Made by a program: the position numbers and the translations under genes
Notes under the pieces: generated by a model
What the model saw: the letters and a program-made list of their open reading frames with translations, nothing else
What the model was told of the DNA's origin: nothing
Databases searched by the model: none
In this document: positions 1,696 through 15,853 of the stretch, piece after piece
Layout: every line of letters starts with the position of its first letter
Position numbering within the stretch: the stretch's first letter is position 1
UHGV virus genome: UHGV-0128496
From: a virus
Direction: 5' to 3' (one strand)
DNA: 16,551 nucleotides

Positions 1696-2274
1696 TTAGT
1701 TGTTGCTGGTGGTTGGGATTAGTTTCTGCCAAATCGCTGAAACATATTTCGCCTGGTGGCGGGCATCAGCCAGTGCGTTATGTGCAACCCCATCAAATGG
1801 CATATCACGCTTAGGATCGAAACCTACAACTCTGCCTAATGTGACGATGGTTCTGACGTCGTGATCATTCCAAAATTGCCACGGGCAAACCTGGCCGGCA
1901 CGCTCATATGCGCCGCGCAATATAACGTTGTCGAAAGTAGCTCCATTGCCCCAAACTTTTAAATATTTAGGGTTATCAGAATGCCGATTAATGAAATGGC
2001 TCAGTTCAGATAGGGCAGATGATATCGGCATCGCATCATCAACACAGATTGCTGATCGTGCTTCTGAGCTTTGTCTTAACCACCACAGAATAGTGTCACC
2101 GTCCGGCACCGCTCCCTGCTCCATAGCGCTTTCAAGGTTAACGGCGCTGTAAAACTCCTGACCCAGTTCACCGCTTTGCGGATCGAAGAACACGGCACCT
2201 ATGGAGACGATAGGGGCATTTGGTTTTTTGCCCATGGATTCGAGGTCGATCATTAAATTGTTCACGTTATACAT
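1696..2274 (-). CDS. DEDDh-family 3'-5' exonuclease (DnaQ-like)
   Basis: Exo motifs visible: LMIDLESMG (D-x-E), WGNGATFDNVIL, GVAHNALADARHQAKY (H-x4-D). I place the start at the internal ATG at 2274 (MYNVNN...), preceded directly by AGGAGA; the longer track ORF (to 2466) would overlap the upstream gene by 200 nt. Confidence 0.75.
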   Translation of the reverse strand: MYNVNNLMIDLESMGKKPNAPIVSIGAVFFDPQSGELGQEFYSAVNLESAMEQGAVPDGDTILWWLRQSSEARSAICVDDAMPISSALSELSHFINRHSDNPKYLKVWGNGATFDNVILRGAYERAGQVCPWQFWNDHDVRTIVTLGRVVGFDPKRDMPFDGVAHNALADARHQAKYVSAIWQKLIPTTSNN

Positions 2275-3049
2275 TCTCCTGCTGCGGTGCTGCTGCCTGC
2301 TCAGCTGCCATAGCTGCATCGATTTGCTCACGTAATTTGGTCGCGTGATAATCGTCATCTTCATCCGTGATGGTCTGCGACCAGAAAATGCTATGGCTTC
2401 CGTAAACCATAGGCTCACGAACATCAACGGTTTTAGATACCAGCCAGTCCATGCGGAGTACGTCATCCGGAGTTACCGGAGAGTTGCCAGCCTGGAGAAT
2501 AGATTTCAGCGCTGCCCTTGGCATTGCCGACCAGGCAAGGAATACGTCTGGCCTGTCGACATCTTCTGTCGGGAGAGTGTTTTCTATTTCGTCCAGCGCA
2601 TCACTTAGCTTCTGAAATGCGTCGTCTGGAACAACGTGGCACTCTTCGCCATCAACATCTTGCTGACAGCTATCATCTGCGAGTTCGAATGCGGCCCAGC
2701 AAACATTGAGCAGCATTTCAATAACGCGACGGTGTTCTGCTGTTACGCAATTCTCCGGCACTACCTGCGCTGGCGTGGCAGTGTAGAGCGGAATTACCGC
2801 ATCTCCCATTGGCTGAGACAGGCACTTAAGGTGAAGATCACCCATCTTTGCATAAGCCAGAGTTTCCTCAGCGGCATAAAGCACAGGCTCAGCATTCAGG
2901 ACTTCATCAATCACCTTCACAGCATCAGCCATTGCGTAGCCGAGATTACCGCCGTCGCTTTGTGCTGCTGCGTTGCTGAGTATTTCGCTTATCTGGTGCA
3001 GGCGATCGAGTGATACAGGACCGTGCGCCGGGTGGTTGTTAGTTGTCAT
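2267..3049 (-). CDS. Hypothetical acidic phage protein (260 aa), function unknown
   Basis: Long ORF in the coupled early-left operon; AGGGAGGA RBS 7 nt upstream of the ATG at 3049. Asp/Glu-rich with cysteine clusters; no motif I can assign. Confidence 0.6.
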   Translation of the reverse strand: MTTNNHPAHGPVSLDRLHQISEILSNAAAQSDGGNLGYAMADAVKVIDEVLNAEPVLYAAEETLAYAKMGDLHLKCLSQPMGDAVIPLYTATPAQVVPENCVTAEHRRVIEMLLNVCWAAFELADDSCQQDVDGEECHVVPDDAFQKLSDALDEIENTLPTEDVDRPDVFLAWSAMPRAALKSILQAGNSPVTPDDVLRMDWLVSKTVDVREPMVYGSHSIFWSQTITDEDDDYHATKLREQIDAAMAAEQAAAPQQENV

Positions 3050-3052
3050 GGG

Positions 3053-3271
3053 TTAGTCCTCCCTGTACGGATTTAATTTGTTGTGCAGTTTGTTAAATGG
3101 CCCCCATACGATGGAGCTATACCACTCAGCTATCTTTTCTGCCTGTTCTCCTGCTAACCAGATGAGGACTATCGGTGATATTGGAATCATTAAAATAAGA
3201 AAGAGAAGGAAAAATAGAGCCTCTTTAACACGGCTTTGGCGCGGATAATTCTTCAGGAATATTTTGGTCAC
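3053..3271 (-). CDS. Small hydrophobic (membrane) protein, 72 aa
   Basis: GTG start overlapping the stop of the upstream HNH gene (GTGA). Strongly hydrophobic central segment ALFFLLFLILMIPISPIVLIWLA suggests one transmembrane helix. Confidence 0.45.
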   Translation of the reverse strand: MTKIFLKNYPRQSRVKEALFFLLFLILMIPISPIVLIWLAGEQAEKIAEWYSSIVWGPFNKLHNKLNPYRED

Positions 3272-3645
3272 AAGTTATCCCCCTCTTGATACCGCTCGAA
3301 CCAGAACACAACTGGTGCGTTAGTCTGTTTAACCAGGCCAAATGATTCCGCTGTGCGGTAACTTCTTGACGCACGGCGAGTTACATCAACCTGAGTGGCT
3401 ATGCGGCTGCGAAAGTCTTCTACTGTGCTGCACATTTTGAACAAGTTGCATGGAATGCATGCTGGAACCATGTTGCTGACCGTGTCATTTTCTGGCCTGT
3501 CCATTGCGTAGCCGTTGCTGATATTTCTTCGTACCGCTTCTACATGGTCTGCATGCCACTTATCGCCAAGTTCACAGCCGCAATAAGCACAGCGACCGCC
3601 AAACTTCATGCGCAGTTCTGCACGCTGTTTTTTCGTCAGTGCCAT
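3268..3645 (-). CDS. HNH endonuclease
   Basis: CAYCGC ... WHADHVEAV ... N ... VPACIPCN: HNH core (His-Asp-His, Asn) flanked by two CxxC zinc ligand pairs. Start lies 1 nt from the upstream gene's stop. Confidence 0.75.
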   Translation of the reverse strand: MALTKKQRAELRMKFGGRCAYCGCELGDKWHADHVEAVRRNISNGYAMDRPENDTVSNMVPACIPCNLFKMCSTVEDFRSRIATQVDVTRRASRSYRTAESFGLVKQTNAPVVFWFERYQEGDNL

Positions 3646-5262: not shown

Positions 5263-6180
5263 TTAGGCTGCGGGTTTTTGTGGCTGTTCTTCTTTGTACG
5301 AAAGAAGATCACACATCAGGTTTACTACTTTGCTGAATTGGATTAGATCCGTCCCGGCCTGATGGCGCCATTGAAATGCTTTATCATCTTCATCGTTGAA
5401 TGTTTGGGCTTGGGTATTGATGCGCGAAAAATGGAAATTTTCGGTGAGGATGAACGATACACCGCATCCTGCTAGCTCCATTTTATCAGCGGTAAAGCCG
5501 CTATTAAGGCTATCAACTAGCTCGCTTTGAATTGAGTCGTGTTCAGCTGAGTAGCGAATAACTTCATTTTGATCGGCAAGGCGGGACAGCTGGATATAAT
5601 TGCCGACGGTAAACCCTTCAAAAGCATTGGCCACGCCATTGATATAGTTTTTCAACCGCGTAGTTAAACCGTTCTTAATATCGCTAATGTTGATTGTTTC
5701 TGTTTTAACGGAACCGACAACTTTCACCAGCATAGCCACAGCCATACCGGCAATATTTTTATTGGTCGTATTGACCACTAATAGCTTTTCGTTGGTGCTG
5801 TACAACGCAAGGATCAGCGTTGATTTAACAAATGCCCGTTTACACAGGTCAACGCGGACGCTGTCGATAATTGCTAATCGTTCGATACGTTTGATTTTAC
5901 TCCCGGACATATCTTCGATTCTTTGGATCCGTGCTGCGGCTTCCTTCAAAACAACATGCTGGGGAATGATTTTCTGATCATGGCGGATCACGATGGCATA
6001 CCCACCTGATATTGGGGTGACCAATTCGCCAGTGATCGGGTTTGGCACAAAAGAGGCGCGTGAAAACTCAGTTTCACCAATCTCGGAGTAGGGGAGTTCA
6101 AGCAGATGCCCCTCGATAGCTTCAATGCTAGGTAGTGTGGCGCGGTACACGATTGCGTTACGGAACTTAGGTAATTTCAT
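5263..6180 (-). CDS. rdgC: RdgC-like recombination-associated protein
   Basis: 305-aa ORF whose length and sequence pattern (N-terminal FRNAIVYR, central hydrophobic core, C-terminal acidic tail) match my memory of E. coli RdgC (about 303 aa). AGAGGAAAG RBS 5 nt upstream of the ATG at 6180. Confidence 0.65.
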   Translation of the reverse strand: MKLPKFRNAIVYRATLPSIEAIEGHLLELPYSEIGETEFSRASFVPNPITGELVTPISGGYAIVIRHDQKIIPQHVVLKEAAARIQRIEDMSGSKIKRIERLAIIDSVRVDLCKRAFVKSTLILALYSTNEKLLVVNTTNKNIAGMAVAMLVKVVGSVKTETINISDIKNGLTTRLKNYINGVANAFEGFTVGNYIQLSRLADQNEVIRYSAEHDSIQSELVDSLNSGFTADKMELAGCGVSFILTENFHFSRINTQAQTFNDEDDKAFQWRHQAGTDLIQFSKVVNLMCDLLSYKEEQPQKPAA

Positions 6181-9139: not shown

Positions 9140-9994
9140 ATGAGCACTAAATTAACCGGTTACGTATGGGATGCATGCGCTTCGTCAGGCATGAAGTTAT
9201 CCAGCGTTGCCATCATGGCGCGTCTGGCAGACTTCAGCAGTGATGAAGGGGTTAGCTGGCCTTCCATCGCTACCATCGCGCGCCAGATTGGTGCTGGTGA
9301 GAGCACGGTTCGTACAGCCATATCTCAGCTGGAAAAAGATGGTTGGTTAACCCGCCAGCAGCGCCGTAAAGGCAACCGAAATGCATCGAACGTTTACCAG
9401 CTCAATGTTGCGAAATTGCAGGCTGCTGCCTTTTCTCACCTGTCAGATTCTGACGCATCAAAATCTGATGCCTCAAAAACAGACGCGTCAAAATCTGAGG
9501 CATCAAAAAACGATGAAAAAGGCGGTTTTCACCCGTCAGAATCTGGGGGGGATCCGTCAGTAAATACAACTACTGATCCATCAGTTAAAAAACCTTCTTG
9601 TCCGGTTGCGCCGCAACCAGACCCTGAAGTGATGATCACCGATAACGCCATCCTGGTTCTGAATCATCTGAACCTGGTTAGTGGCTCACGATACCAAAAA
9701 TCAAAAACTTCTCTGGAAAACATCCGTGCTCGTCTGCGTGAAGGTTACACCGTTAGCGACTTACAGCTGGTGATCGACCTTAAGCATGAGCACTGGAACG
9801 GCAATGACGTGCAGTACCAGTACATGCGTCCTGAAACGCTCTTCGGTCCGAAAAAATTTGAAGGTTATCTGCAAAGCGGGATCCGCTGGGACAAGAAGGG
9901 GCGGCCACCGCGTGACAGCTGGGGTGAAAAGAAACATGACCCGATGAAGTTCGGTCCGGTTGATAGCAAGATTCCAGAGGGGTTCAGAGGATGA
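9140..9994 (+). CDS. Replication initiation protein (lambda-O-like; N-terminal winged HTH, conserved phage C-terminal domain)
   Basis: N-terminus VAIMARLADFSSDEGVSWPSIATIARQIGAGESTVRTAISQLEKDGWL is typical of HTH_36-type initiators. A low-complexity linker (DASKS x4) precedes a conserved C-terminal domain (VLNHLNLVSGSRYQ ... LFGPKKFEGYLQ). The position after the cro/cII module matches a replication gene. Confidence 0.7.
   Translation: MSTKLTGYVWDACASSGMKLSSVAIMARLADFSSDEGVSWPSIATIARQIGAGESTVRTAISQLEKDGWLTRQQRRKGNRNASNVYQLNVAKLQAAAFSHLSDSDASKSDASKTDASKSEASKNDEKGGFHPSESGGDPSVNTTTDPSVKKPSCPVAPQPDPEVMITDNAILVLNHLNLVSGSRYQKSKTSLENIRARLREGYTVSDLQLVIDLKHEHWNGNDVQYQYMRPETLFGPKKFEGYLQSGIRWDKKGRPPRDSWGEKKHDPMKFGPVDSKIPEGFRG
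9452..9511 (+). repeat. Four tandem 15-bp iteron-like repeats inside the initiator gene (putative origin)
   Basis: gacgcatcaaaatct / gatgcctcaaaaaca / gacgcgtcaaaatct / gaggcatcaaaaaac, with partial copies on both sides. Each has a near-palindromic GAYGCRTC core and an A-tract. Lambda ori likewise lies as iterons inside the O gene. Confidence 0.45.
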
Positions 9995-11325
9995 TGGAAA
10001 ATAAATACTGCCGTGCACTGGCTGAACTCCGTTCAAAACCAGCACACGAGTTGAAAGAGGTCGGTGATCAATGGCGCACTCCGGATCTGTTGTTTTGGGG
10101 GATCAATGCGATGTTCGGCCCTCTGGTGTTGGACCTTTTTGCCGACGACAGCAACGCGAAGTGCCCAGCATGGTACACGGCTGAAGATAATGCCCTGACG
10201 CAGGATTGGTCAGAGCGGCTGGCAGAACTCGGTGGTGCCGGGTTTGGCAACCCGCCTTACAGCCGCTCTCAGTACCACGACAAGCAGGCCGTTACCGGAA
10301 TGACCCACATCATTAACCACGCTATGGCCATGCGAGAAAAGGGTGGTCGGTACGTTTTTCTCATTAAGTCTGCGACGAGTGAAACGTGGTGGCCGGAAGA
10401 GGCAGATCACGTCACATTCATCCGTGGCCGAATTGGTTTCGATCTTCCTACATGGTTCGTGCCGAAAGACGAAAAGCAGCAGCCCACCAGCGCATTTTTT
10501 GCTGGCGCTATCGTGGTCTTCGACAAAACATGGCGGGGTGAGCGTTTCAGTTACATCAACCGCACCGACCTGGAGGCCAAAGGCCGTGCTGCGATGTCGC
10601 TGGCCCAATTTGCCGTGGGAAGAACGCAAACTGATGCGGCGCCAGAGCTGGACGCTGAGGTAGTGCCGAAGAAATCAGAGGCAGAACTGCCATTAACCCA
10701 AAAAGCCATTCTGGAAACCAGCGGTGTAGAGGCTTGGGCCTGTGTTGTCGCGGCGTTCGGCGAGAAAGACGAGTACACCTTCAGCGAGTCAAAGTTTGGT
10801 CATACCTGGGCTGCCGACTCTCTGGAAAACCCTGAATTTACCAATGTTTCACCGCTGACGATCGACAGAGCGAAAAAGCTGATCAGCGAGAGCATCCTGG
10901 TGGGTGTTAATGCATGGCTGGAAACATTGCCCTTTGATAGCGATGACGTGAAACAAGACATGTCAGAGCGGTTACGCACGGTTGCCGTTGAGTCTGCGAA
11001 AGAATACGGCATTAACCACAGTGAATTCATCGCGACCATGGAAAGCCTGGATAAAGCCAAATGGTCAAATATTCGGGGGATCCGCGCCCATGTCCGTGAG
11101 ACGCAGGAATCAAAGGACAAGGCGTTAAACGAATCGCGCGTTTGGCCTCTTGAGGTTGGACTGGTGTTTAACCAGATTGAAGGGGCTGACGCTCTACCTG
11201 TTTCGCAGCAGAACAAGCTGAAAGCCAATATCAACCAGCTGTGGCTCGAACGTATGCCGACGAGTGAAATTATCACGACCGCTGGTGGTCTCTTCAACAG
11301 CATGCAGGGGGCCGTCAATGCGTGA
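9991..11325 (+). CDS. Phage Dam-family N6-adenine DNA methyltransferase with about 240-aa C-terminal extension
   Basis: N-terminal about 200 aa carry WRTPD and the catalytic FGNPPYS (NPPY) motif of phage Dam-type N6A MTases. Its ATG overlaps the initiator stop (ATGATG). Residues about 205-444 have no motif I recognise. Confidence 0.8.
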   Translation: MMENKYCRALAELRSKPAHELKEVGDQWRTPDLLFWGINAMFGPLVLDLFADDSNAKCPAWYTAEDNALTQDWSERLAELGGAGFGNPPYSRSQYHDKQAVTGMTHIINHAMAMREKGGRYVFLIKSATSETWWPEEADHVTFIRGRIGFDLPTWFVPKDEKQQPTSAFFAGAIVVFDKTWRGERFSYINRTDLEAKGRAAMSLAQFAVGRTQTDAAPELDAEVVPKKSEAELPLTQKAILETSGVEAWACVVAAFGEKDEYTFSESKFGHTWAADSLENPEFTNVSPLTIDRAKKLISESILVGVNAWLETLPFDSDDVKQDMSERLRTVAVESAKEYGINHSEFIATMESLDKAKWSNIRGIRAHVRETQESKDKALNESRVWPLEVGLVFNQIEGADALPVSQQNKLKANINQLWLERMPTSEIITTAGGLFNSMQGAVNA

Positions 11326-13255
11326 AATTATCGTTGATAACTTTGCTGGTGGCGGCGGCGCGAGTACCGGCATTGAACTGGCGATCGGGCGTAGCGTGGA
11401 TATCGCTATCAACCACGACGAAAACGCTATTGCGATGCATAAGACGAATCACCCTGACACGCTGCATTATTGCGAGTCGGTGTTTGACGTTGACCCAAGC
11501 GCAGCCACCAGCGGTAAACCTGTCGGTCTGGCCTGGTTTAGCCCTGACTGCCGCCACTTTTCCAAGGCGAAGGGCGCTAAGCCGGTTAAGAAAGAGATTC
11601 GCGGGCTGGCGTGGATTGTCCTGCGCTGGGCGCTGGCAGTACGTCCCCGCGTCATGATGCTGGAGAACGTCGAAGAGTTTAAGACATGGGGCCCGCTGCT
11701 GGATGAAGAATTACGCCCGGATCCTGAGCGTGCTGGCGAAACATTCGAGGCATTTGTCGGCATGCTGTCGACGGGGATCGCGGCGAATCACCCTGCGCTG
11801 GCTGAGGTTTGTGAATTCCTTGCCATTGAGCCGCACGGCCAGCAGGCGCAACAGCTGATCGCCGGGCTTGGTTATGAGGTTGATTATCGGGAGCTGCGCG
11901 CATGTGACTACGGCGCGCCGACGATCAGAAAGCGTTTCTTCATGGTCATGCGCTGTGACGGCCGCAAGATTCATTGGCCTGAAGCGACTCATGGGGATCC
12001 AAAATCACTGGAAGTACAAAGCGGCAAGCTGGCGCCATGGCGTACCGCGGCGGAGTGCATTGACTGGAATATCCCGGCCCGGTCCATCTTCGACCGCAAA
12101 AAGCCGCTGGCGGAAAATACGCTCAAACGTATCGCGCGCGGCATCCAGCGCTTTGTTATCGAAAGCGCATCACCTTTCATCGTGAAGTGTAACCACACCA
12201 CGACGAAAGGAGGTTATGACTGTTTCCGCGGGCAATCGTTGTTAGAGCCATTGCAGACCATCACTAAAAAGCATGGCTACGCACTGGCGGTACCGCATCT
12301 TACTAAATTCCGCACCGGGGCCACCGGGCAGCCAGTGACCGAGCCGGTACCAACTGTCACCGCTGGTACGTCGGCGCGCCCGGGCGGGAATGGGCATGCG
12401 CTTGGCGTAGTTGAGGCCGCCCTGACACCGTTCCTGGCTGGCAATGGCGGCAGTGAGTACCAGGCAAAGCCGCGCCCGCTGGATAAACCCGCTCATACAA
12501 TCCTCAAGCAGTCCCGCGCGTGCGTGGTTGCGCCGGTCATCGCCCGCCAGTTTGGAGCCAGTGTTGGGCACAGGGCTGACGAACCGAGTGCGACGATTAC
12601 TGCAGGTGGTGGCGGTAAGTCGCAGCTGGTAACTCCAACACTGATCCAGATGGGGTACGGCGAACGCCCAGGGCAAGAACCGCGTGTTCTTCAACTGAAT
12701 AACCCGCTCGGCACGGTCACTGCTGGTGGTAATAAGTTTGCAACGGTGAGCGCGTTCCTGGCGAAGCACTATGGTGGGAATTACACGGGGCCGGGTGTTG
12801 GTATGGATGAGCCTGCCCACTCAGTCACTACTGTTGATCACCACGCGGTAGTTGCGTCGCACCTGGTGAAGCTGCGCGGAACCTGCCGCGACGGTCAGAC
12901 CATGGATACACCTATGCCGACGATTACCGCTGGTGGCCAGCACGTTGGCGAGGTCCGGACATTCCTCGAAACCTACTGCGGTGATAGCGAGGATGAATGG
13001 CTGGTGACGATCGAGGGGGTTAAGTACCAGATCGTCGATATCGGAATGCGCATGCTGCAACCGCATGAGCTTTATAAGGCGCAGGGCTTCCCTGACGGCT
13101 ACGTTATCGATCAGGACTATCGCGGCAATCGTTACGCCAAAGACAAGCAGGTAGCGCGCTGTGGTAACGCAGTACCGCCGCCGTTCGCTCGTGCGCTGGT
13201 AGAAGCAAATCTTCCTGAATTATGTGCAAATCAAAAGGCGGGTGCAGCCGCCTGA
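11318..13255 (+). CDS. DNA cytosine-5 methyltransferase (large, repeat-containing variable region)
   Basis: Motif I FAGGGGAS, an ENV motif (MLENVEEF) and C-terminal CGNAVPPP; the Cys motif reads SPDCRHFS rather than canonical PCQ. Start taken at the ATG at 11318 (MREIIVDNFAGGGG), overlapping the Dam stop; the track ORF extends upstream in the same frame. The region between the catalytic and C-terminal motifs holds about five P-x-x-T-[VI]-T-A-G-G repeats. Confidence 0.8.
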   Translation: MREIIVDNFAGGGGASTGIELAIGRSVDIAINHDENAIAMHKTNHPDTLHYCESVFDVDPSAATSGKPVGLAWFSPDCRHFSKAKGAKPVKKEIRGLAWIVLRWALAVRPRVMMLENVEEFKTWGPLLDEELRPDPERAGETFEAFVGMLSTGIAANHPALAEVCEFLAIEPHGQQAQQLIAGLGYEVDYRELRACDYGAPTIRKRFFMVMRCDGRKIHWPEATHGDPKSLEVQSGKLAPWRTAAECIDWNIPARSIFDRKKPLAENTLKRIARGIQRFVIESASPFIVKCNHTTTKGGYDCFRGQSLLEPLQTITKKHGYALAVPHLTKFRTGATGQPVTEPVPTVTAGTSARPGGNGHALGVVEAALTPFLAGNGGSEYQAKPRPLDKPAHTILKQSRACVVAPVIARQFGASVGHRADEPSATITAGGGGKSQLVTPTLIQMGYGERPGQEPRVLQLNNPLGTVTAGGNKFATVSAFLAKHYGGNYTGPGVGMDEPAHSVTTVDHHAVVASHLVKLRGTCRDGQTMDTPMPTITAGGQHVGEVRTFLETYCGDSEDEWLVTIEGVKYQIVDIGMRMLQPHELYKAQGFPDGYVIDQDYRGNRYAKDKQVARCGNAVPPPFARALVEANLPELCANQKAGAAA

Positions 13256-13269
13256 TATGGAGAAATAGC

Positions 13270-13962
13270 ATGAATCAGTTAACCGCTAAGGGTGTTGTGA
13301 CAATGTCCAGCCGTGAAATTGCCAGGCTGGTGCAGAGCAAACATGGTGATGTGAAGCGCTCAGCTGAGCGCCTTGCATCTGCTGGTATTTTAACCGCGCC
13401 GTTGGCGCACACCCCCTACACACACCCGCAAAACGGGCAAACCTACGAGGAGTATTGGTTTAACAAACGTGATTCTCTGGTGATCGTCGCCAGGCTGTCG
13501 CCAGAATTTACCGCCGCTGTTGTCGATCGCTGGCAAGAGCTGGAGAACAGCCAGGCCGTAAGTGTCCCGCAAACATTGCCGGAGGCATTACGTCTCGCCG
13601 CGGATCTGGCCGAGCAGAAAGAACAACTCAGCCAGCAGTTAGCCGCTGCCGCGCCGAAAGTTGAGTTTGTCGATCGATATTGTACTGCCAAAGGCTCAAT
13701 GTCTTTCCGCCAGGTGGCAAAGCTGTTGCAGGCCAAAGAGACCGATTTCCGCTTGTTCCTCATTGAGAGCGGCATTTTGTACCGGCTCAGTGGAGTGCTG
13801 ACACCTCGGCACCAGCACATTGCTGCCGGGCGGTTTGAAGTGAAAACTGGCACTACGAGCGAAACAAACTACGCCTTTAGCCAGGCACGTTTTACACCCA
13901 AAGGCATCGAGTGGATCGGCGGCCTGTGGACGGCACACATCGCTAAGGGGCATGCCGCGTGA
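13270..13962 (+). CDS. Rha-family regulator / antirepressor (Rha N-terminal domain plus KilA-C/ANT-like C-terminus)
   Basis: N-terminus MSSREIARLVQSKHGDVKRSAERL resembles the Rha domain; C-terminal EALRLAADLAEQKEQL ... KVEFVDRY resembles ANT/KilA-C. GGAGAAA RBS 5 nt before the ATG at 13270. Confidence 0.65.
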   Translation: MNQLTAKGVVTMSSREIARLVQSKHGDVKRSAERLASAGILTAPLAHTPYTHPQNGQTYEEYWFNKRDSLVIVARLSPEFTAAVVDRWQELENSQAVSVPQTLPEALRLAADLAEQKEQLSQQLAAAAPKVEFVDRYCTAKGSMSFRQVAKLLQAKETDFRLFLIESGILYRLSGVLTPRHQHIAAGRFEVKTGTTSETNYAFSQARFTPKGIEWIGGLWTAHIAKGHAA

Positions 13963-15020
13963 GAGGACTGTTTACAGCCGAGACTGTTCCGCGCCTTGGG
14001 CTTGTGCTGTTAAAGCCGGGTAGCGAACTGATGTCTTTGTTTCAACAGGGGCGTGTGCTGGTGGAGCCTCAGCCAAAAAGCATGGCTGGGCTTCCGTCGG
14101 GGCTCGTCCCTGATGCCCGGCAGCCGCTGGCAGAAGATAAGTCCCTCGAGGAATTCTTCACCGACGAGAGAGTTATCCGTGCAGCAGGCGGTTTGTCCGG
14201 GTTGGAATCCTGGCTAGAGCGTAACGTGAAGGAATGCCAGTACCCGCACACTAATTATCACCATCATGAGCTGGTAACGATGCGACATCCCCCTGGATCA
14301 ATGTTGCTCTGTTGGCATTGCGATAACCAGCTGCGCGAGCAAACCACCGCGGCGCTGGCAGAACTGGCCCGGCGTAATCTCATTAACTGGCTGATCAGTT
14401 CTATCCTGTCTTCGCTTGGCTACAACAACGAGCGTGAACTATCCCTCGGTGAATTGTGCTGGTGGGCCGTTTACTCAGGCATTGCTGATGCAATCACGGA
14501 AAGGATGGCCCAGCATGCGCTTCGCTTACCGGATGAGCCGTTTTTATCCGTATATCGCGAAAGTGACATTGTGCCGATGCCACCGACAAAAAACATTTTG
14601 CAGAAGAAGGTCACCCCTGCGGTCACGGCTGCGCATTTAAAGCATGGAACAAATCAGGAAGTGGCCTATGACCAGCCACAGGTTCTGGCTCTGCATGCGG
14701 ATCCTGAATCCCCTGAATCATTCATGTTGCGCCCAAAACACCGCAGGTGGGTGAATGAGGACTATACCCGGTGGGCTAAAACCCAGCCCTGTGAAGGTTG
14801 CCGGCGGCCAGCGGATGATCCACACCATGTCATTGGTCACGGCATGGGCGGTACCGCCACTAAAGCCCACGATTTGTTCGTGATCCCTCTGTGCAGAGAG
14901 TGTCACGACAAATTACATGCTGATGTTGCAGCGTTCGAGAAAAAACACGGTACCCAGCTGGAGCTGCTATTCCGATTTATGAATCGAGCGCTGGCGATCG
15001 GCGTAATAACAAAAGCGTAA
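13959..15020 (+). CDS. DUF968-like prophage protein with C-terminal HNH-like zinc motif
   Basis: GTG start overlapping the Rha stop (GTGA), with AAGGGG 8 nt upstream. C-terminus PCEGCRRPADDPHHVIGHGMGGTATKAHDLFVIPLCRECHDKLH has an HNH-like arrangement (CxxC ... HH ... CxxCH). I recall DUF968 (YdfU-like) proteins sitting next to Q in Qin-like prophages. Confidence 0.5.
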   Translation: MRGLFTAETVPRLGLVLLKPGSELMSLFQQGRVLVEPQPKSMAGLPSGLVPDARQPLAEDKSLEEFFTDERVIRAAGGLSGLESWLERNVKECQYPHTNYHHHELVTMRHPPGSMLLCWHCDNQLREQTTAALAELARRNLINWLISSILSSLGYNNERELSLGELCWWAVYSGIADAITERMAQHALRLPDEPFLSVYRESDIVPMPPTKNILQKKVTPAVTAAHLKHGTNQEVAYDQPQVLALHADPESPESFMLRPKHRRWVNEDYTRWAKTQPCEGCRRPADDPHHVIGHGMGGTATKAHDLFVIPLCRECHDKLHADVAAFEKKHGTQLELLFRFMNRALAIGVITKA

Positions 15021-15041
15021 TTGTATGGAGCGCTGAGCATA

Positions 15042-15734
15042 ATGAATTTACAAGAACTGGAATATACGCGGATTGAACTGCGCCGCGCGCTGGCGGATTT
15101 ATCAGGATCGACAAAAGGACAGCTGCAGGCGTTCAGTGAGCATCCACCAGCAGATAAGAATAAATACCCCCGGCACCATCCTGAAATCGTCATGGAGGGT
15201 GGGGAAGGTTGTGGGTCAAAGGTTGTAACAACGCTGGCCACTCCATTTTATGTTCTTGAGACAAGGAGCCGTCGTCGACCTTTGCCGCCTATTAAAGATA
15301 CGGAGTTCGCTTGTTCAGCATGGCGTCGTTCGGTCAATGGTCTGGGTGAGCATTTGCAGGCATGGGTGCGGTACTGCTATGGGTATGACCTTACTTTCCG
15401 GTACCAGACATTGATGTGCCAGCACGTGTGGGAACAGTTTCAGCGTCAGCATAGCGGCAAAAAAATACAGGGCCGCGTCACTAAAAAACTGGTAGGGCTT
15501 GTCTGGCTGGCGGCGCAAGAAGTTGCTGCCTCGCGTAATAACGATACCTATCAGGAGTATGCTGGTGCAGCTCTGGCGCGCATGGTCAGCGTTGAGCGTT
15601 CCACCTGGCTCAGAGTGTATTCAGGCCACTGGGCGGCTTTCAAAGCGTCGTTTGCTGAAATGGATAGCCAGGCACTAAGCGAAATTTTGTCACGGTACGA
15701 AGAGTACCAAGAACTGAAAGTGGCGGAAATGTGA
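15042..15734 (+). CDS. Late-gene antitermination protein Q-like
   Basis: Last gene of the early-right operon, immediately upstream of a promoter-plus-terminator pair. Size and sequence fit my recollection of enterobacterial Q-like proteins. Start placed at the ATG at 15042 (MNLQELEY...). Confidence 0.5.
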   Translation: MNLQELEYTRIELRRALADLSGSTKGQLQAFSEHPPADKNKYPRHHPEIVMEGGEGCGSKVVTTLATPFYVLETRSRRRPLPPIKDTEFACSAWRRSVNGLGEHLQAWVRYCYGYDLTFRYQTLMCQHVWEQFQRQHSGKKIQGRVTKKLVGLVWLAAQEVAASRNNDTYQEYAGAALARMVSVERSTWLRVYSGHWAAFKASFAEMDSQALSEILSRYEEYQELKVAEM

Positions 15735-15792: not shown

Positions 15793-15821
15793 TTGAAGCT
15801 AATTTTATATTTTGTCATAAT
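15793..15821 (+). promoter_or_regulatory. PR'-like late promoter candidate
   Basis: -35 TTGAAG (15793-15798), 17-bp spacer, -10 CATAAT (15816-15821), just upstream of a terminator. An alternative is TTGCAA (15765-15770) with CATATT (15788-15793). Confidence 0.4.
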
Positions 15822-15831
15822 TATATCTAAC

Positions 15832-15853
15832 CTCGCCTCGGCGGGGTTTTTTT
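15832..15853 (+). terminator. tR'-like rho-independent terminator
   Basis: GC-rich hairpin cctcgcc-tcg-gcgggg followed by T7 (15847-15853). Its position directly after Q and a promoter matches the lambdoid 6S-RNA/tR' arrangement. Confidence 0.6.

What the first reader, a model, noticed from the sequence alone, without database searches (positions are those of the whole stretch)
13959..15020. DUF968-like protein ends in an HNH-like zinc motif
The last about 50 residues (PCEGCRRPADDPHHVIGHGMGGTATKAHDLFVIPLCRECHDKLH) have the ligand spacing of an HNH/His-Me finger nuclease. The protein sits next to the Rha antirepressor and Q. Function in this family is, to my knowledge, unassigned; a nuclease here could act in DNA processing or in exclusion.
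Basis: partly seen in the sequence, partly recalled or inferred. Interest (0 to 1): 0.35.

Follow-up and report, generated by a model that had tools for sequence, protein, structure and literature searches.

The report
Known YdfU-type phage HNH nuclease gene
This prophage gene encodes an ordinary member of the YdfU/DUF968 family, whose C-terminal HNH (His-Me finger) nuclease motif is real and conserved but already described in databases and papers, although nobody has yet tested what the protein does.

Summary
ORF 13959-15020 (+) encodes a 353-aa protein. The quoted Cys/His motif is residues 277-320, so 33 residues follow it. It lies between an Rha/KilAC antirepressor and a Q antiterminator.

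The protein matches Pfam DUF968 (E=2e-70) and PHROG 96 "HNH endonuclease" (E=7e-151). It is 56% identical over its full length to E. coli K-12 YdfU. The zinc and catalytic residues (C278, C281, H289, H290, H304, D305, C312, H320) are invariant in 48 homologs. The AlphaFold model of the C-terminal domain has only HNH nucleases as its top 18 PDB matches, at modest scores. Its profile aligns to YbcO (PDB 3g27).

Curtis 2014 and Jablonska 2017 already classify DUF968/YdfU as His-Me finger proteins and propose a recombination role. No biochemical test was found.

New minor points:
- The N-terminal ~190 residues are outside Pfam, with no structural match found. They carry a second conserved Cys/His cluster and are better conserved than the HNH motif in phage P1 PdcB.
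- In 75 of 80 loci the gene lies one or two genes upstream of Q.
- RusA is nearby in 56 of 80 loci; NinG/Rap in none.

Likeliest role: an accessory early DNA endonuclease acting on recombination or replication intermediates.

The parts
13959..15020 (+). YdfU-family (DUF968) protein gene, 353 aa plus stop. The GTG start overlaps the Ant stop codon.
   Evidence: Pfam DUF968 E=2.2e-70. PHROG 96 E=6.9e-151 over the full length. 56% identity over 350 aa to K-12 YdfU.
13959..14528 (+). N-terminal domain, residues ~1-190. It is largely outside Pfam (only about residues 160-190 fall within the DUF968 match) and no structural relative was found. The AlphaFold model is confident (pLDDT about 90) over residues 50-190.
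   Evidence: The Pfam match starts at residue 160. phrog_11007 'unknown' covers residues 2-133. Model. No significant PDB or BFVD match. Only 191 representative clusters in 1.84 billion proteins, nearly always at the N-terminus.
14235..14336 (+). Second Cys/His cluster, residues 93-126: C93-Q94 ... H101 ... C118-W-x-C121-D122-N123 ... R126. It lies on a predicted beta-hairpin plus helix (strands 105-110 and 113-118, helix 119-125). Proposed structural zinc site.
   Evidence: C93, Q94, C118, D122, N123 and R126 are invariant even in P1 PdcB and a Vibrio phage homolog. Position 101 is H or C and position 121 is C or H. Secondary structure. No detectable sequence relationship to the C-terminal HNH.
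14529..14744 (+). Variable, low-confidence linker, residues ~191-262. It includes an indel-rich stretch (about 225-245) and a conserved DPESPESF...RPKRRRW segment.
   Evidence: pLDDT below 50 for 197-201, 222-240 and 246-261. Gaps and length variation in the alignment.
14745..15017 (+). C-terminal HNH / His-Me finger domain, residues ~263-353.
   Evidence: Domain-only model with pLDDT 80.6 and pTM 0.72. Foldseek top 18 PDB hits are all HNH nucleases; best is EcoKMcrA at E=4.5e-3, probability 0.97. BFVD hits are ~100-115 aa standalone DUF968/HNH phage proteins. hhalign to YbcO gives probability 91%.
14787..14918 (+). Zinc ligands: C278, C281, C312, C315. HH pair: H289/H290, with H290 the probable general base. 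H304-D305 sit at the 'N' position of HNH. H320 is the probable catalytic-metal ligand.
   Evidence: Invariance. In-register alignment with IscB HNH domains and YbcO.
13222..13962 (+). Upstream neighbour: antirepressor with Rha N-terminal and KilAC/ANT C-terminal domains. The likely true start is 13270. Translationally coupled to the DUF968 gene.
   Evidence: Pfam ANT E=2e-24 and Phage_pRha E=1.9e-9. RefSeq annotation of a near-identical prophage.
15021..15734 (+). Downstream neighbour: antitermination protein Q (PF06323). The likely true start is the ATG at 15042.
   Evidence: Pfam E=4.6e-41. RefSeq annotation. Sequence.

Best explanation
The gene encodes a YdfU/PdcB-type member of the DUF968 family. 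It has three parts: an N-terminal domain of about 190 residues with its own probable structural zinc site, a flexible linker, and a C-terminal zinc-stabilised HNH (His-Me finger) nuclease domain with a complete catalytic set.

It is transcribed as the last gene of the delayed-early operon, before Q, and is translationally coupled to the antirepressor gene.

Inferred mechanism: after induction the protein binds DNA, most likely branched or single-strand-containing recombination or replication intermediates recognised through the N-terminal domain. It then nicks or cuts with the HNH site, using H290 as general base and a divalent metal held by H320 and the D286/D287 or H304/D305 region. This would be a non-essential helper of phage recombination and replication. 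It occupies the genomic and probably functional niche that NinG/Rap holds in lambda, and in most relatives it works alongside the Holliday-junction resolvase RusA.

What is shown: family membership, domain layout, ligand conservation, predicted fold and synteny. What is inferred: nuclease activity, substrate and biological role.
For: Family and fold:
- Pfam DUF968 and PHROG 96.
- 56% identity to YdfU.
- Invariant Zn and catalytic residues.
- The C-domain model matches only HNH nucleases at the top of the PDB list.
- hhalign to YbcO/3g27 at 91% probability.
- IscB HNH and YbcO align in register.

Role:
- In 80 viral loci, Q is the first or second downstream gene in 75.
- RusA is within 5 kb in 56 loci, and in 24 it sits directly between this gene and Q.
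- Lambda-type NinG/Rap, Orf, YbcN and YbcO are found in none.
- Intergenic gaps are mostly 0-21 nt, and no + strand promoter-like or terminator-like site lies between 12800 and the end of Q.
- Published analyses report DUF968 domains fused to Erf, Rad52-like and RusA proteins and propose a recombination role (PMC4118853, PMC5714182).
- P1 pdcB is non-essential, like the lambda nin genes (PMC10695390 and PMC10067587).
Against: - I found no biochemical or genetic test of any YdfU, YbcO or PdcB protein.
- Fold-match statistics are modest: best E=4.5e-3 and TM about 0.45. YbcO itself was not in the Foldseek top 50.
- Frequent co-occurrence with RusA means the protein is not simply a junction-resolvase substitute.
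- This window has no RusA, so any partnership is optional.
- In P1 PdcB the HNH residues H290, H316 and H320 are replaced while the N-terminal domain is retained. The family's conserved function may therefore not need HNH catalysis.
- Absence of NinG within 5 kb in a sample of closely related enterobacterial phages is weak evidence for functional equivalence.
Confidence: 0.5

Rival explanations
1. The protein is a host-directed or competitor-directed nuclease. It would degrade host or superinfecting DNA (exclusion or host shut-off), possibly with the phage's own DNA protected by the Dam-like and C5 methyltransferases encoded just upstream.
For: The catalytic set is intact. Two methyltransferase genes lie in the same operon in this window. 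Dam or C5 methyltransferases are among the three upstream genes in a minority of related loci (clusters 6 and 9). The best structural match is the HNH domain of the restriction enzyme EcoKMcrA.
Against: There is no match to any PADLOC defence model. The gene lies in the delayed-early operon with no + strand promoter-like site upstream of it in the scanned region, so it should be silent in a lysogen. Methyltransferases are absent from most related loci. In a 99.9% identical prophage the C5 methyltransferase is a frameshifted pseudogene while this gene is intact. The McrA match covers only the generic HNH core.
Confidence: 0.15
2. The protein is mainly a non-catalytic zinc-finger DNA-binding or adaptor protein tied to the switch to late transcription. 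The HNH fold would serve as a binding module.
For: The gene lies immediately upstream of the late activator in unrelated systems: four different Q families in 75 of 80 loci, and Lpa in phage P1. The N-terminal domain is better conserved than the HNH catalytic residues in P1 PdcB.
Against: The position is explained simply by its being the last slot of the early operon. The HH pair, H304-D305 and H320 are invariant across the enterobacterial clade, which argues for catalysis. P1 knock-down of pdcB does not affect plaque formation, whereas lpa is essential.
Confidence: 0.1
3. The gene is a free-standing HNH homing endonuclease, that is, a selfish gene.
For: HNH homing endonucleases are common in phage genomes (general knowledge). 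Some BFVD neighbours are annotated as HNH homing endonucleases.
Against: The two-domain architecture is fixed and conserved from E. coli to Vibrio phages and P1. The slot in the operon stays constant while the flanking genes are swapped. The gene is translationally coupled to its neighbours. No homing-endonuclease DNA-binding modules such as NUMOD or AP2 were detected.
Confidence: 0.05
4. The protein is a packaging-associated HNH that assists terminase in cos cleavage, like HK97 gp74.
For: It is a phage HNH protein, and the related prophage has a lambda-like terminase, gpW and portal module.
Against: Packaging HNH genes lie next to the terminase or portal genes (general knowledge of the HK97 gp74 family). 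Here the terminase gene starts about 7 kb downstream, beyond Q and the lysis genes. The gene belongs to the early operon, not the late one.
Confidence: 0.03

Closest known systems
E. coli K-12 YdfU (Qin prophage, b1560); Pfam DUF968 (PF06147); PHROG 96
   Same: 56% identity over the whole length. Same two-domain layout, same Cys/His residues and same position directly upstream of a Q gene, ydfT.
   Different: Nothing substantive. The upstream neighbour here is an antirepressor rather than rem/hokD. YdfU itself is uncharacterised.
YbcO (DLP12 prophage, DUF1364, PDB 3g27), placed with DUF968 in His-Me finger group 7 by Jablonska et al. 2017
   Same: Homologous HNH core (hhalign probability 91%). 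Also a nin-region gene, lying directly upstream of rusA and near Q.
   Different: YbcO is 96 aa and consists of the nuclease module only, with no counterpart of the N-terminal ~190 residues. Its C-terminal metal-ligand position reads CHDEID rather than CHDKLH.
Phage P1 PdcB
   Same: Distant full-length homolog at 25.6% identity. The N-terminal invariant residues are retained, and the gene lies directly upstream of the late activator gene lpa.
   Different: Several HNH positions are replaced: H290, H316 to Q, and H320 to E. It sits in a non-lambdoid genome, downstream of phd-doc. It is known to be non-essential.
Lambda NinG/Rap (PF05766), a branch-specific His-Me finger endonuclease
   Same: Same superfamily by published classification (PMC5714182). 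Same operon region shortly upstream of Q. Never found together with the YdfU-type gene in the 80 loci examined.
   Different: No detectable sequence relationship (hhalign probability 3.9%; no Pfam NinG hit). Different domain architecture. Rap has demonstrated activity on D-loops and junctions, whereas this protein has none shown.
Gram-positive DUF968 proteins described as Orf-HNH fusions (Curtis et al. 2014)
   Same: Same Pfam family and the same C-terminal zinc HNH motif.
   Different: The proposed Orf-like N-terminal domain is not detectable here. Neither the middle nor the N-terminal region relates to lambda Orf or YbcN. The corresponding region is predicted to be largely linker.

Membership tests
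Pfam DUF968 (PF06147) | Score above the family's gathering threshold over the whole model | tested here: met
   236.6 bits against a cutoff of 27.8. Model positions 1-171 of 171 align to residues 160-348.
YdfU/PdcB subfamily (PHROG 96) | Full-length similarity that includes the N-terminal domain | tested here: met
   PHROG 96 E=6.9e-151 over residues 1-351. 56% identity over 350 aa to K-12 YdfU.
HNH / His-Me finger superfamily | Beta-beta-alpha-metal topology | tested here: met
   This rests on a predicted model only. The model shows short strands around residues 277-290 and 308-309 followed by helix 313-321. The top 18 Foldseek PDB hits are all HNH nucleases, with a best E of 4.5e-3.
HNH / His-Me finger superfamily | Catalytic histidine (general base) at the end of the first strand | tested here: met
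   H289-H290 are invariant in 48 of 48 homologs and align with the HH of IscB HNH domains.
HNH / His-Me finger superfamily | Metal-ligand His/Asn in the helix, and a structural 'N' position | tested here: met
   H320 is invariant. H304-D305 are invariant and sit at the position aligned to the Asn of IscB.
HNH / His-Me finger superfamily | Structural zinc site formed by two Cys pairs (in the zinc-containing subgroup) | tested here: met
   C278, C281 and C312 are invariant. Position 315 is C in 34 and H in 14 of 48. Metal binding itself was not testable.
HNH / His-Me finger superfamily | Metal-dependent nuclease activity | not testable with these tools
   No experimental report was found for YdfU, YbcO or PdcB.
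NinG/Rap (PF05766) | Sequence match to the NinG family | tested here: not met
   No Pfam NinG hit. hhalign probability 3.9% for the C-domain and 0.06% for the N-domain.
Orf (NinB)-HNH fusion type of DUF968 | Orf/RAGNYA-like domain N-terminal to the HNH | tested here: not met
   hhalign of the middle and N-terminal regions against lambda Orf and DLP12 YbcN gives probability 0.2% or less.
Terminase-associated HNH (HK97 gp74 type) | Gene adjacent to terminase or portal genes in the late operon | tested here: not met
   The terminase gene starts about 7 kb downstream, beyond Q and the lysis genes, in the near-identical prophage.
Known anti-phage defence systems (PADLOC) | Match to any defence-system protein model | tested here: not met
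   No families at E up to 0.1, for either the full protein or the N-domain.

The most novel reading that the evidence does not exclude
The defining and functionally central part of the YdfU/PdcB family is not the HNH module. It is the uncatalogued N-terminal zinc-binding domain (C93, H/C101, C118, C/H121, plus invariant Q94, D122, N123, R126 and the ELCWW helix). This domain has no match in Pfam, the PDB or BFVD and may be a new DNA-structure-recognition fold. With it, the protein would form a dedicated two-nuclease module with RusA at the very end of the early operon, processing replication or recombination intermediates just before late gene expression.
Probability: 0.12. Interest if true: 0.45.

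Novelty: already known. Interest (0 to 1): 0.15.

Why it matters
It matters little as a discovery. The gene is a routine component of lambdoid prophages, and its HNH nature is already in Pfam-based classifications, PHROGs and two papers.

The open question is real but modest. No YdfU, YbcO or PdcB protein has been assayed, although the family is very common in Enterobacterales prophages, including Shiga-toxin phages. The gene also occupies a strikingly constant slot next to RusA and Q.

Defining its substrate would fill one of the remaining gaps in the nin-region recombination toolkit. It would also give a function to an E. coli K-12 y-gene.

Tried and rejected
1. A second, degenerate HNH in the N-terminal domain. 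The predicted hairpin-helix with flanking Cys/His looked like one, but profile-profile comparison of the N and C halves found nothing (E=0.17-0.22). It is kept only as a possible zinc site.

2. An Orf-like domain, as proposed by Curtis 2014. It is not detectable in this subfamily.

3. Full-length model against the PDB. There was no significant hit, so the domain-only model was needed.

4. Sequence and profile searches of the PDB. These gave only sub-significant hits to YbcO and IscB for the C-domain (E=0.2-0.6) and nothing for the N-domain.

5. Long family members (about 400-800 aa) as possible informative fusions. They carry tail-fibre, tail-tip or portal domains, or duplicated DUF968 segments. 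They look like assembly chimeras rather than biology.

6. Defence-system membership. None found.

7. Literature on YdfU, YbcO and PdcB. Searches returned no functional study, and most 'YBCO' hits were papers on superconductors.

8. NCBIfam. It has no model for this protein.

Full report
**Observation.** The ORF at 13959-15020 on the + strand exists and encodes 353 residues. Its GTG start overlaps the stop codon of the upstream gene (GTGA) and has an AAGGGG run 9 nt upstream. RefSeq uses the same start in a 99.9% identical E. coli prophage. It is followed by three more helices, so it is not quite the end of the protein. The neighbours are as described: an antirepressor with Rha and KilAC/ANT domains upstream and a PF06323-type Q antiterminator downstream.

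**Context.** The window is the early region of a lambdoid prophage. It carries, in order:
- an integrase;
- a 3'-5' exonuclease;
- a small HNH ORF;
- Ead/Ea22;
- an RdgC-like protein;
- a CI-like repressor;
- a CII-like protein;
- a replication protein;
- a Dam-like methyltransferase;
- a C5 methyltransferase;
- Ant;
- this gene;
- Q.

**Is the motif real?** Yes.
- The protein matches Pfam DUF968 at 236.6 bits, with weak HNHc_6 and HNH_5 hits on the same residues.
- It matches PHROG 96, named 'HNH endonuclease', over its whole length at E=6.9e-151.
- It is 56% identical over 350 residues to E. coli K-12 YdfU.
- In 48 homologs of 57-87% identity, C278, C281, D286, D287, H289, H290, K302, H304, D305, C312 and H320 are invariant. 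Position 315 is always C or H, and H316 is kept in 47 of 48.
- In profile searches of PDB sequences the top hits are YbcO (3g27) and IscB HNH domains. They are individually non-significant (E=0.2-0.6) but align in register: Cys pair, HH, Cys pair, His.
- A direct profile-to-sequence comparison with YbcO gives hhalign probability 91%, E=9.5e-7.

**Fold.**
- The full-length AlphaFold model (pLDDT 76.6) found no significant PDB match.
- Against the viral structure library it matched only short, ~100-115 aa standalone DUF968/HNH phage proteins (best E=3.8e-6; target-normalised TM 0.65 for that hit and up to 0.70 among the next hits).
- A model of residues 255-353 alone (pLDDT 80.6, pTM 0.72) gave a PDB hit list whose first 18 entries are all HNH nucleases: EcoKMcrA, Cas5-HNH and type I-E HNH Cascade, IscB, CBASS Cap5 and the Gme nicking enzyme.
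- The best of these is E=4.5e-3, probability 0.97, TM about 0.45.
- Each score is modest, as expected for a small zinc-dependent module, but the uniformity of the list is persuasive.

**Already known.** Curtis et al. 2014 (PMC4118853) describe the C-terminal zinc-finger HNH motif of DUF968 and note fusions of the domain to Erf, Rad52-like and RusA proteins. Jablonska et al. 2017 (PMC5714182) place DUF968 together with DUF1364 in His-Me finger group 7, naming YdfU and YbcO. They note RusA, Q and antirepressor genes as neighbours and hypothesise a recombination and repair role like NinG. Several deposited phage genomes already label the ortholog 'HNH endonuclease'. I found no experimental characterisation of YdfU, YbcO or P1 PdcB. 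P1 pdcB is listed as function unknown and non-essential.

**N-terminal domain.**
- Most of the N-terminal ~190 residues lie outside the Pfam model, which starts at residue 160. They correspond to PHROG 11007 of unknown function.
- The domain is modelled with high confidence, pLDDT about 90 for residues 50-190.
- It has no match in the PDB or BFVD.
- An exhaustive search found it in only 191 representative clusters out of 1.84 billion proteins. It is almost always at the N-terminus of proteins of about 320-370 residues.
- It carries a second Cys/His cluster on a predicted hairpin-plus-helix.
- In an alignment that includes P1 PdcB (27% identity) and a Vibrio phage homolog (34%), C93, Q94, C118, D122, N123, R126 and the ELCWW helix are invariant.
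- In the same alignment position 101 is H or C and position 121 is C or H. This is the swapping pattern expected of zinc ligands.
- By contrast, P1 PdcB has replaced H290, H316 and H320, and the Vibrio protein has lost most of the zinc cysteines of the HNH module.
- I could not show that the N-terminal module is a second His-Me finger. Profile comparisons of the two halves are negative.
- The Orf-like domain proposed for Gram-positive DUF968 proteins is not detectable here.

**Synteny in 80 related viral loci**.
- A Q antiterminator from one of four different Pfam families is the first or second downstream gene in 75 loci.
- Of the other five, three have an unidentified 205-aa protein in that slot. 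In the remaining two no Q was found in the short downstream sequence available.
- RusA is within 5 kb in 56 loci. In 24 it lies directly between this gene and Q.
- Lambda-type NinG/Rap, Orf, YbcN and YbcO are found in none.
- Intergenic gaps are nearly all 21 nt or less.
- In P1 the homolog lies directly upstream of the late activator gene lpa. In K-12, ydfU lies directly upstream of ydfT, a Q gene.
- In the window no promoter-like or terminator-like site occurs on the + strand between 12800 and the end of Q.

**Interpretation.** With high confidence (about 0.9) this is a YdfU-family protein with an intact zinc-stabilised HNH active site. With moderate confidence (about 0.4-0.5) it is a non-essential, early-expressed DNA endonuclease that acts on recombination or replication intermediates. 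In that reading it fills the slot that NinG/Rap fills in lambda and often works next to RusA, with the N-terminal domain providing substrate recognition.

**Rivals.**
- An exclusion or host-DNA nuclease. There is no PADLOC hit, it has an operon position that implies silence in lysogens, and it stays intact where the neighbouring C5 methyltransferase is a pseudogene.
- A non-catalytic regulator linked to late transcription. It is suggested by adjacency to late activators and by the P1 divergence. Invariant catalytic residues and the non-essentiality of pdcB count against it.
- A homing endonuclease or a packaging HNH. Both fit the synteny poorly.

**Verdict.** The only mildly new material is the conserved, uncatalogued N-terminal zinc domain and the quantified gene-order pattern.

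Noticed in passing
window 14235-14336 (residues 93-126 of the same protein): There is a second conserved Cys/His cluster in the N-terminal domain. C93, C118, D122, N123 and R126 are invariant even in P1 PdcB, position 101 is H or C, and position 121 is C or H. It looks like a structural zinc site on a predicted hairpin-helix. Most of the domain (residues 1-190; Pfam DUF968 starts at 160) is absent from Pfam and has no PDB or BFVD match.
   Followed up: partly
window 3268-3645 (-): A second, small (125 aa) HNH ORF lies in the early-left operon next to an Ead/Ea22-like gene. Its Pfam HNH score is 21.5 bits, right at the cutoff, and it weakly resembles PtuB-type HNH proteins in PADLOC (E=2e-6).
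   Followed up: partly
window 9991-11325 and 11264/11319-13255 (+): Two large methyltransferase genes sit in tandem just upstream: a 444-aa Dam-like N6-adenine enzyme with a long C-terminal extension, and a 663-aa C5-cytosine enzyme. The C5 gene is intact here but is annotated as a frameshifted pseudogene in a prophage whose DUF968 gene is 99.9% identical (strain ECONIH4, L001).
   Followed up: no
window 15793-15848 (+): A promoter-like site (TTGAAG, 17 nt spacer, CATAAT, with an extended TG) is followed at once by a strong GC-rich hairpin and T-run just downstream of Q. It could be the pR'/tR' region on which Q acts, although the spacing would give a very short transcript.
   Followed up: no
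L002:4001-5044 (phage P1 pdcB): P1 PdcB, listed as 'unknown function', is a distant full-length homolog of YdfU. Its HNH residues have diverged but its N-terminal domain is conserved. It lies between phd-doc-pdcA and the C1-controlled late-activator gene lpa.
   Followed up: partly
L024:6066-6680, L034:6073-6690, L063 (first gene downstream of the DUF968 gene): In three loci the slot normally held by Q is occupied by a conserved protein of about 205 aa with no Pfam match. It may be an uncatalogued late-gene regulator.
   Followed up: no
e.g. L043:4712-4999 (upstream neighbour in 30 of 80 related loci): A conserved protein of about 95 aa with no Pfam match is the commonest gene directly upstream of YdfU-type genes, 1 nt from the DUF968 start in most of these loci. 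In those loci it takes the place that the Ant gene holds in this window.
   Followed up: no
database proteins P0143, P0130, P0138, P0157, P0128: Several long 'family members' join the YdfU N-terminal domain to tail-tip, tail-fibre or portal domains. They are most likely chimeric assemblies across prophage repeats and should not be read as domain fusions.
   Followed up: partly
window 5263-6180 (-) and 1696-2466 (-): The early-left operon encodes an RdgC-like protein (annotated as YfdQ family in RefSeq) and an Rv2179c-like 3'-5' exonuclease. No RusA, NinG or Orf homolog was found in the window.
   Followed up: no
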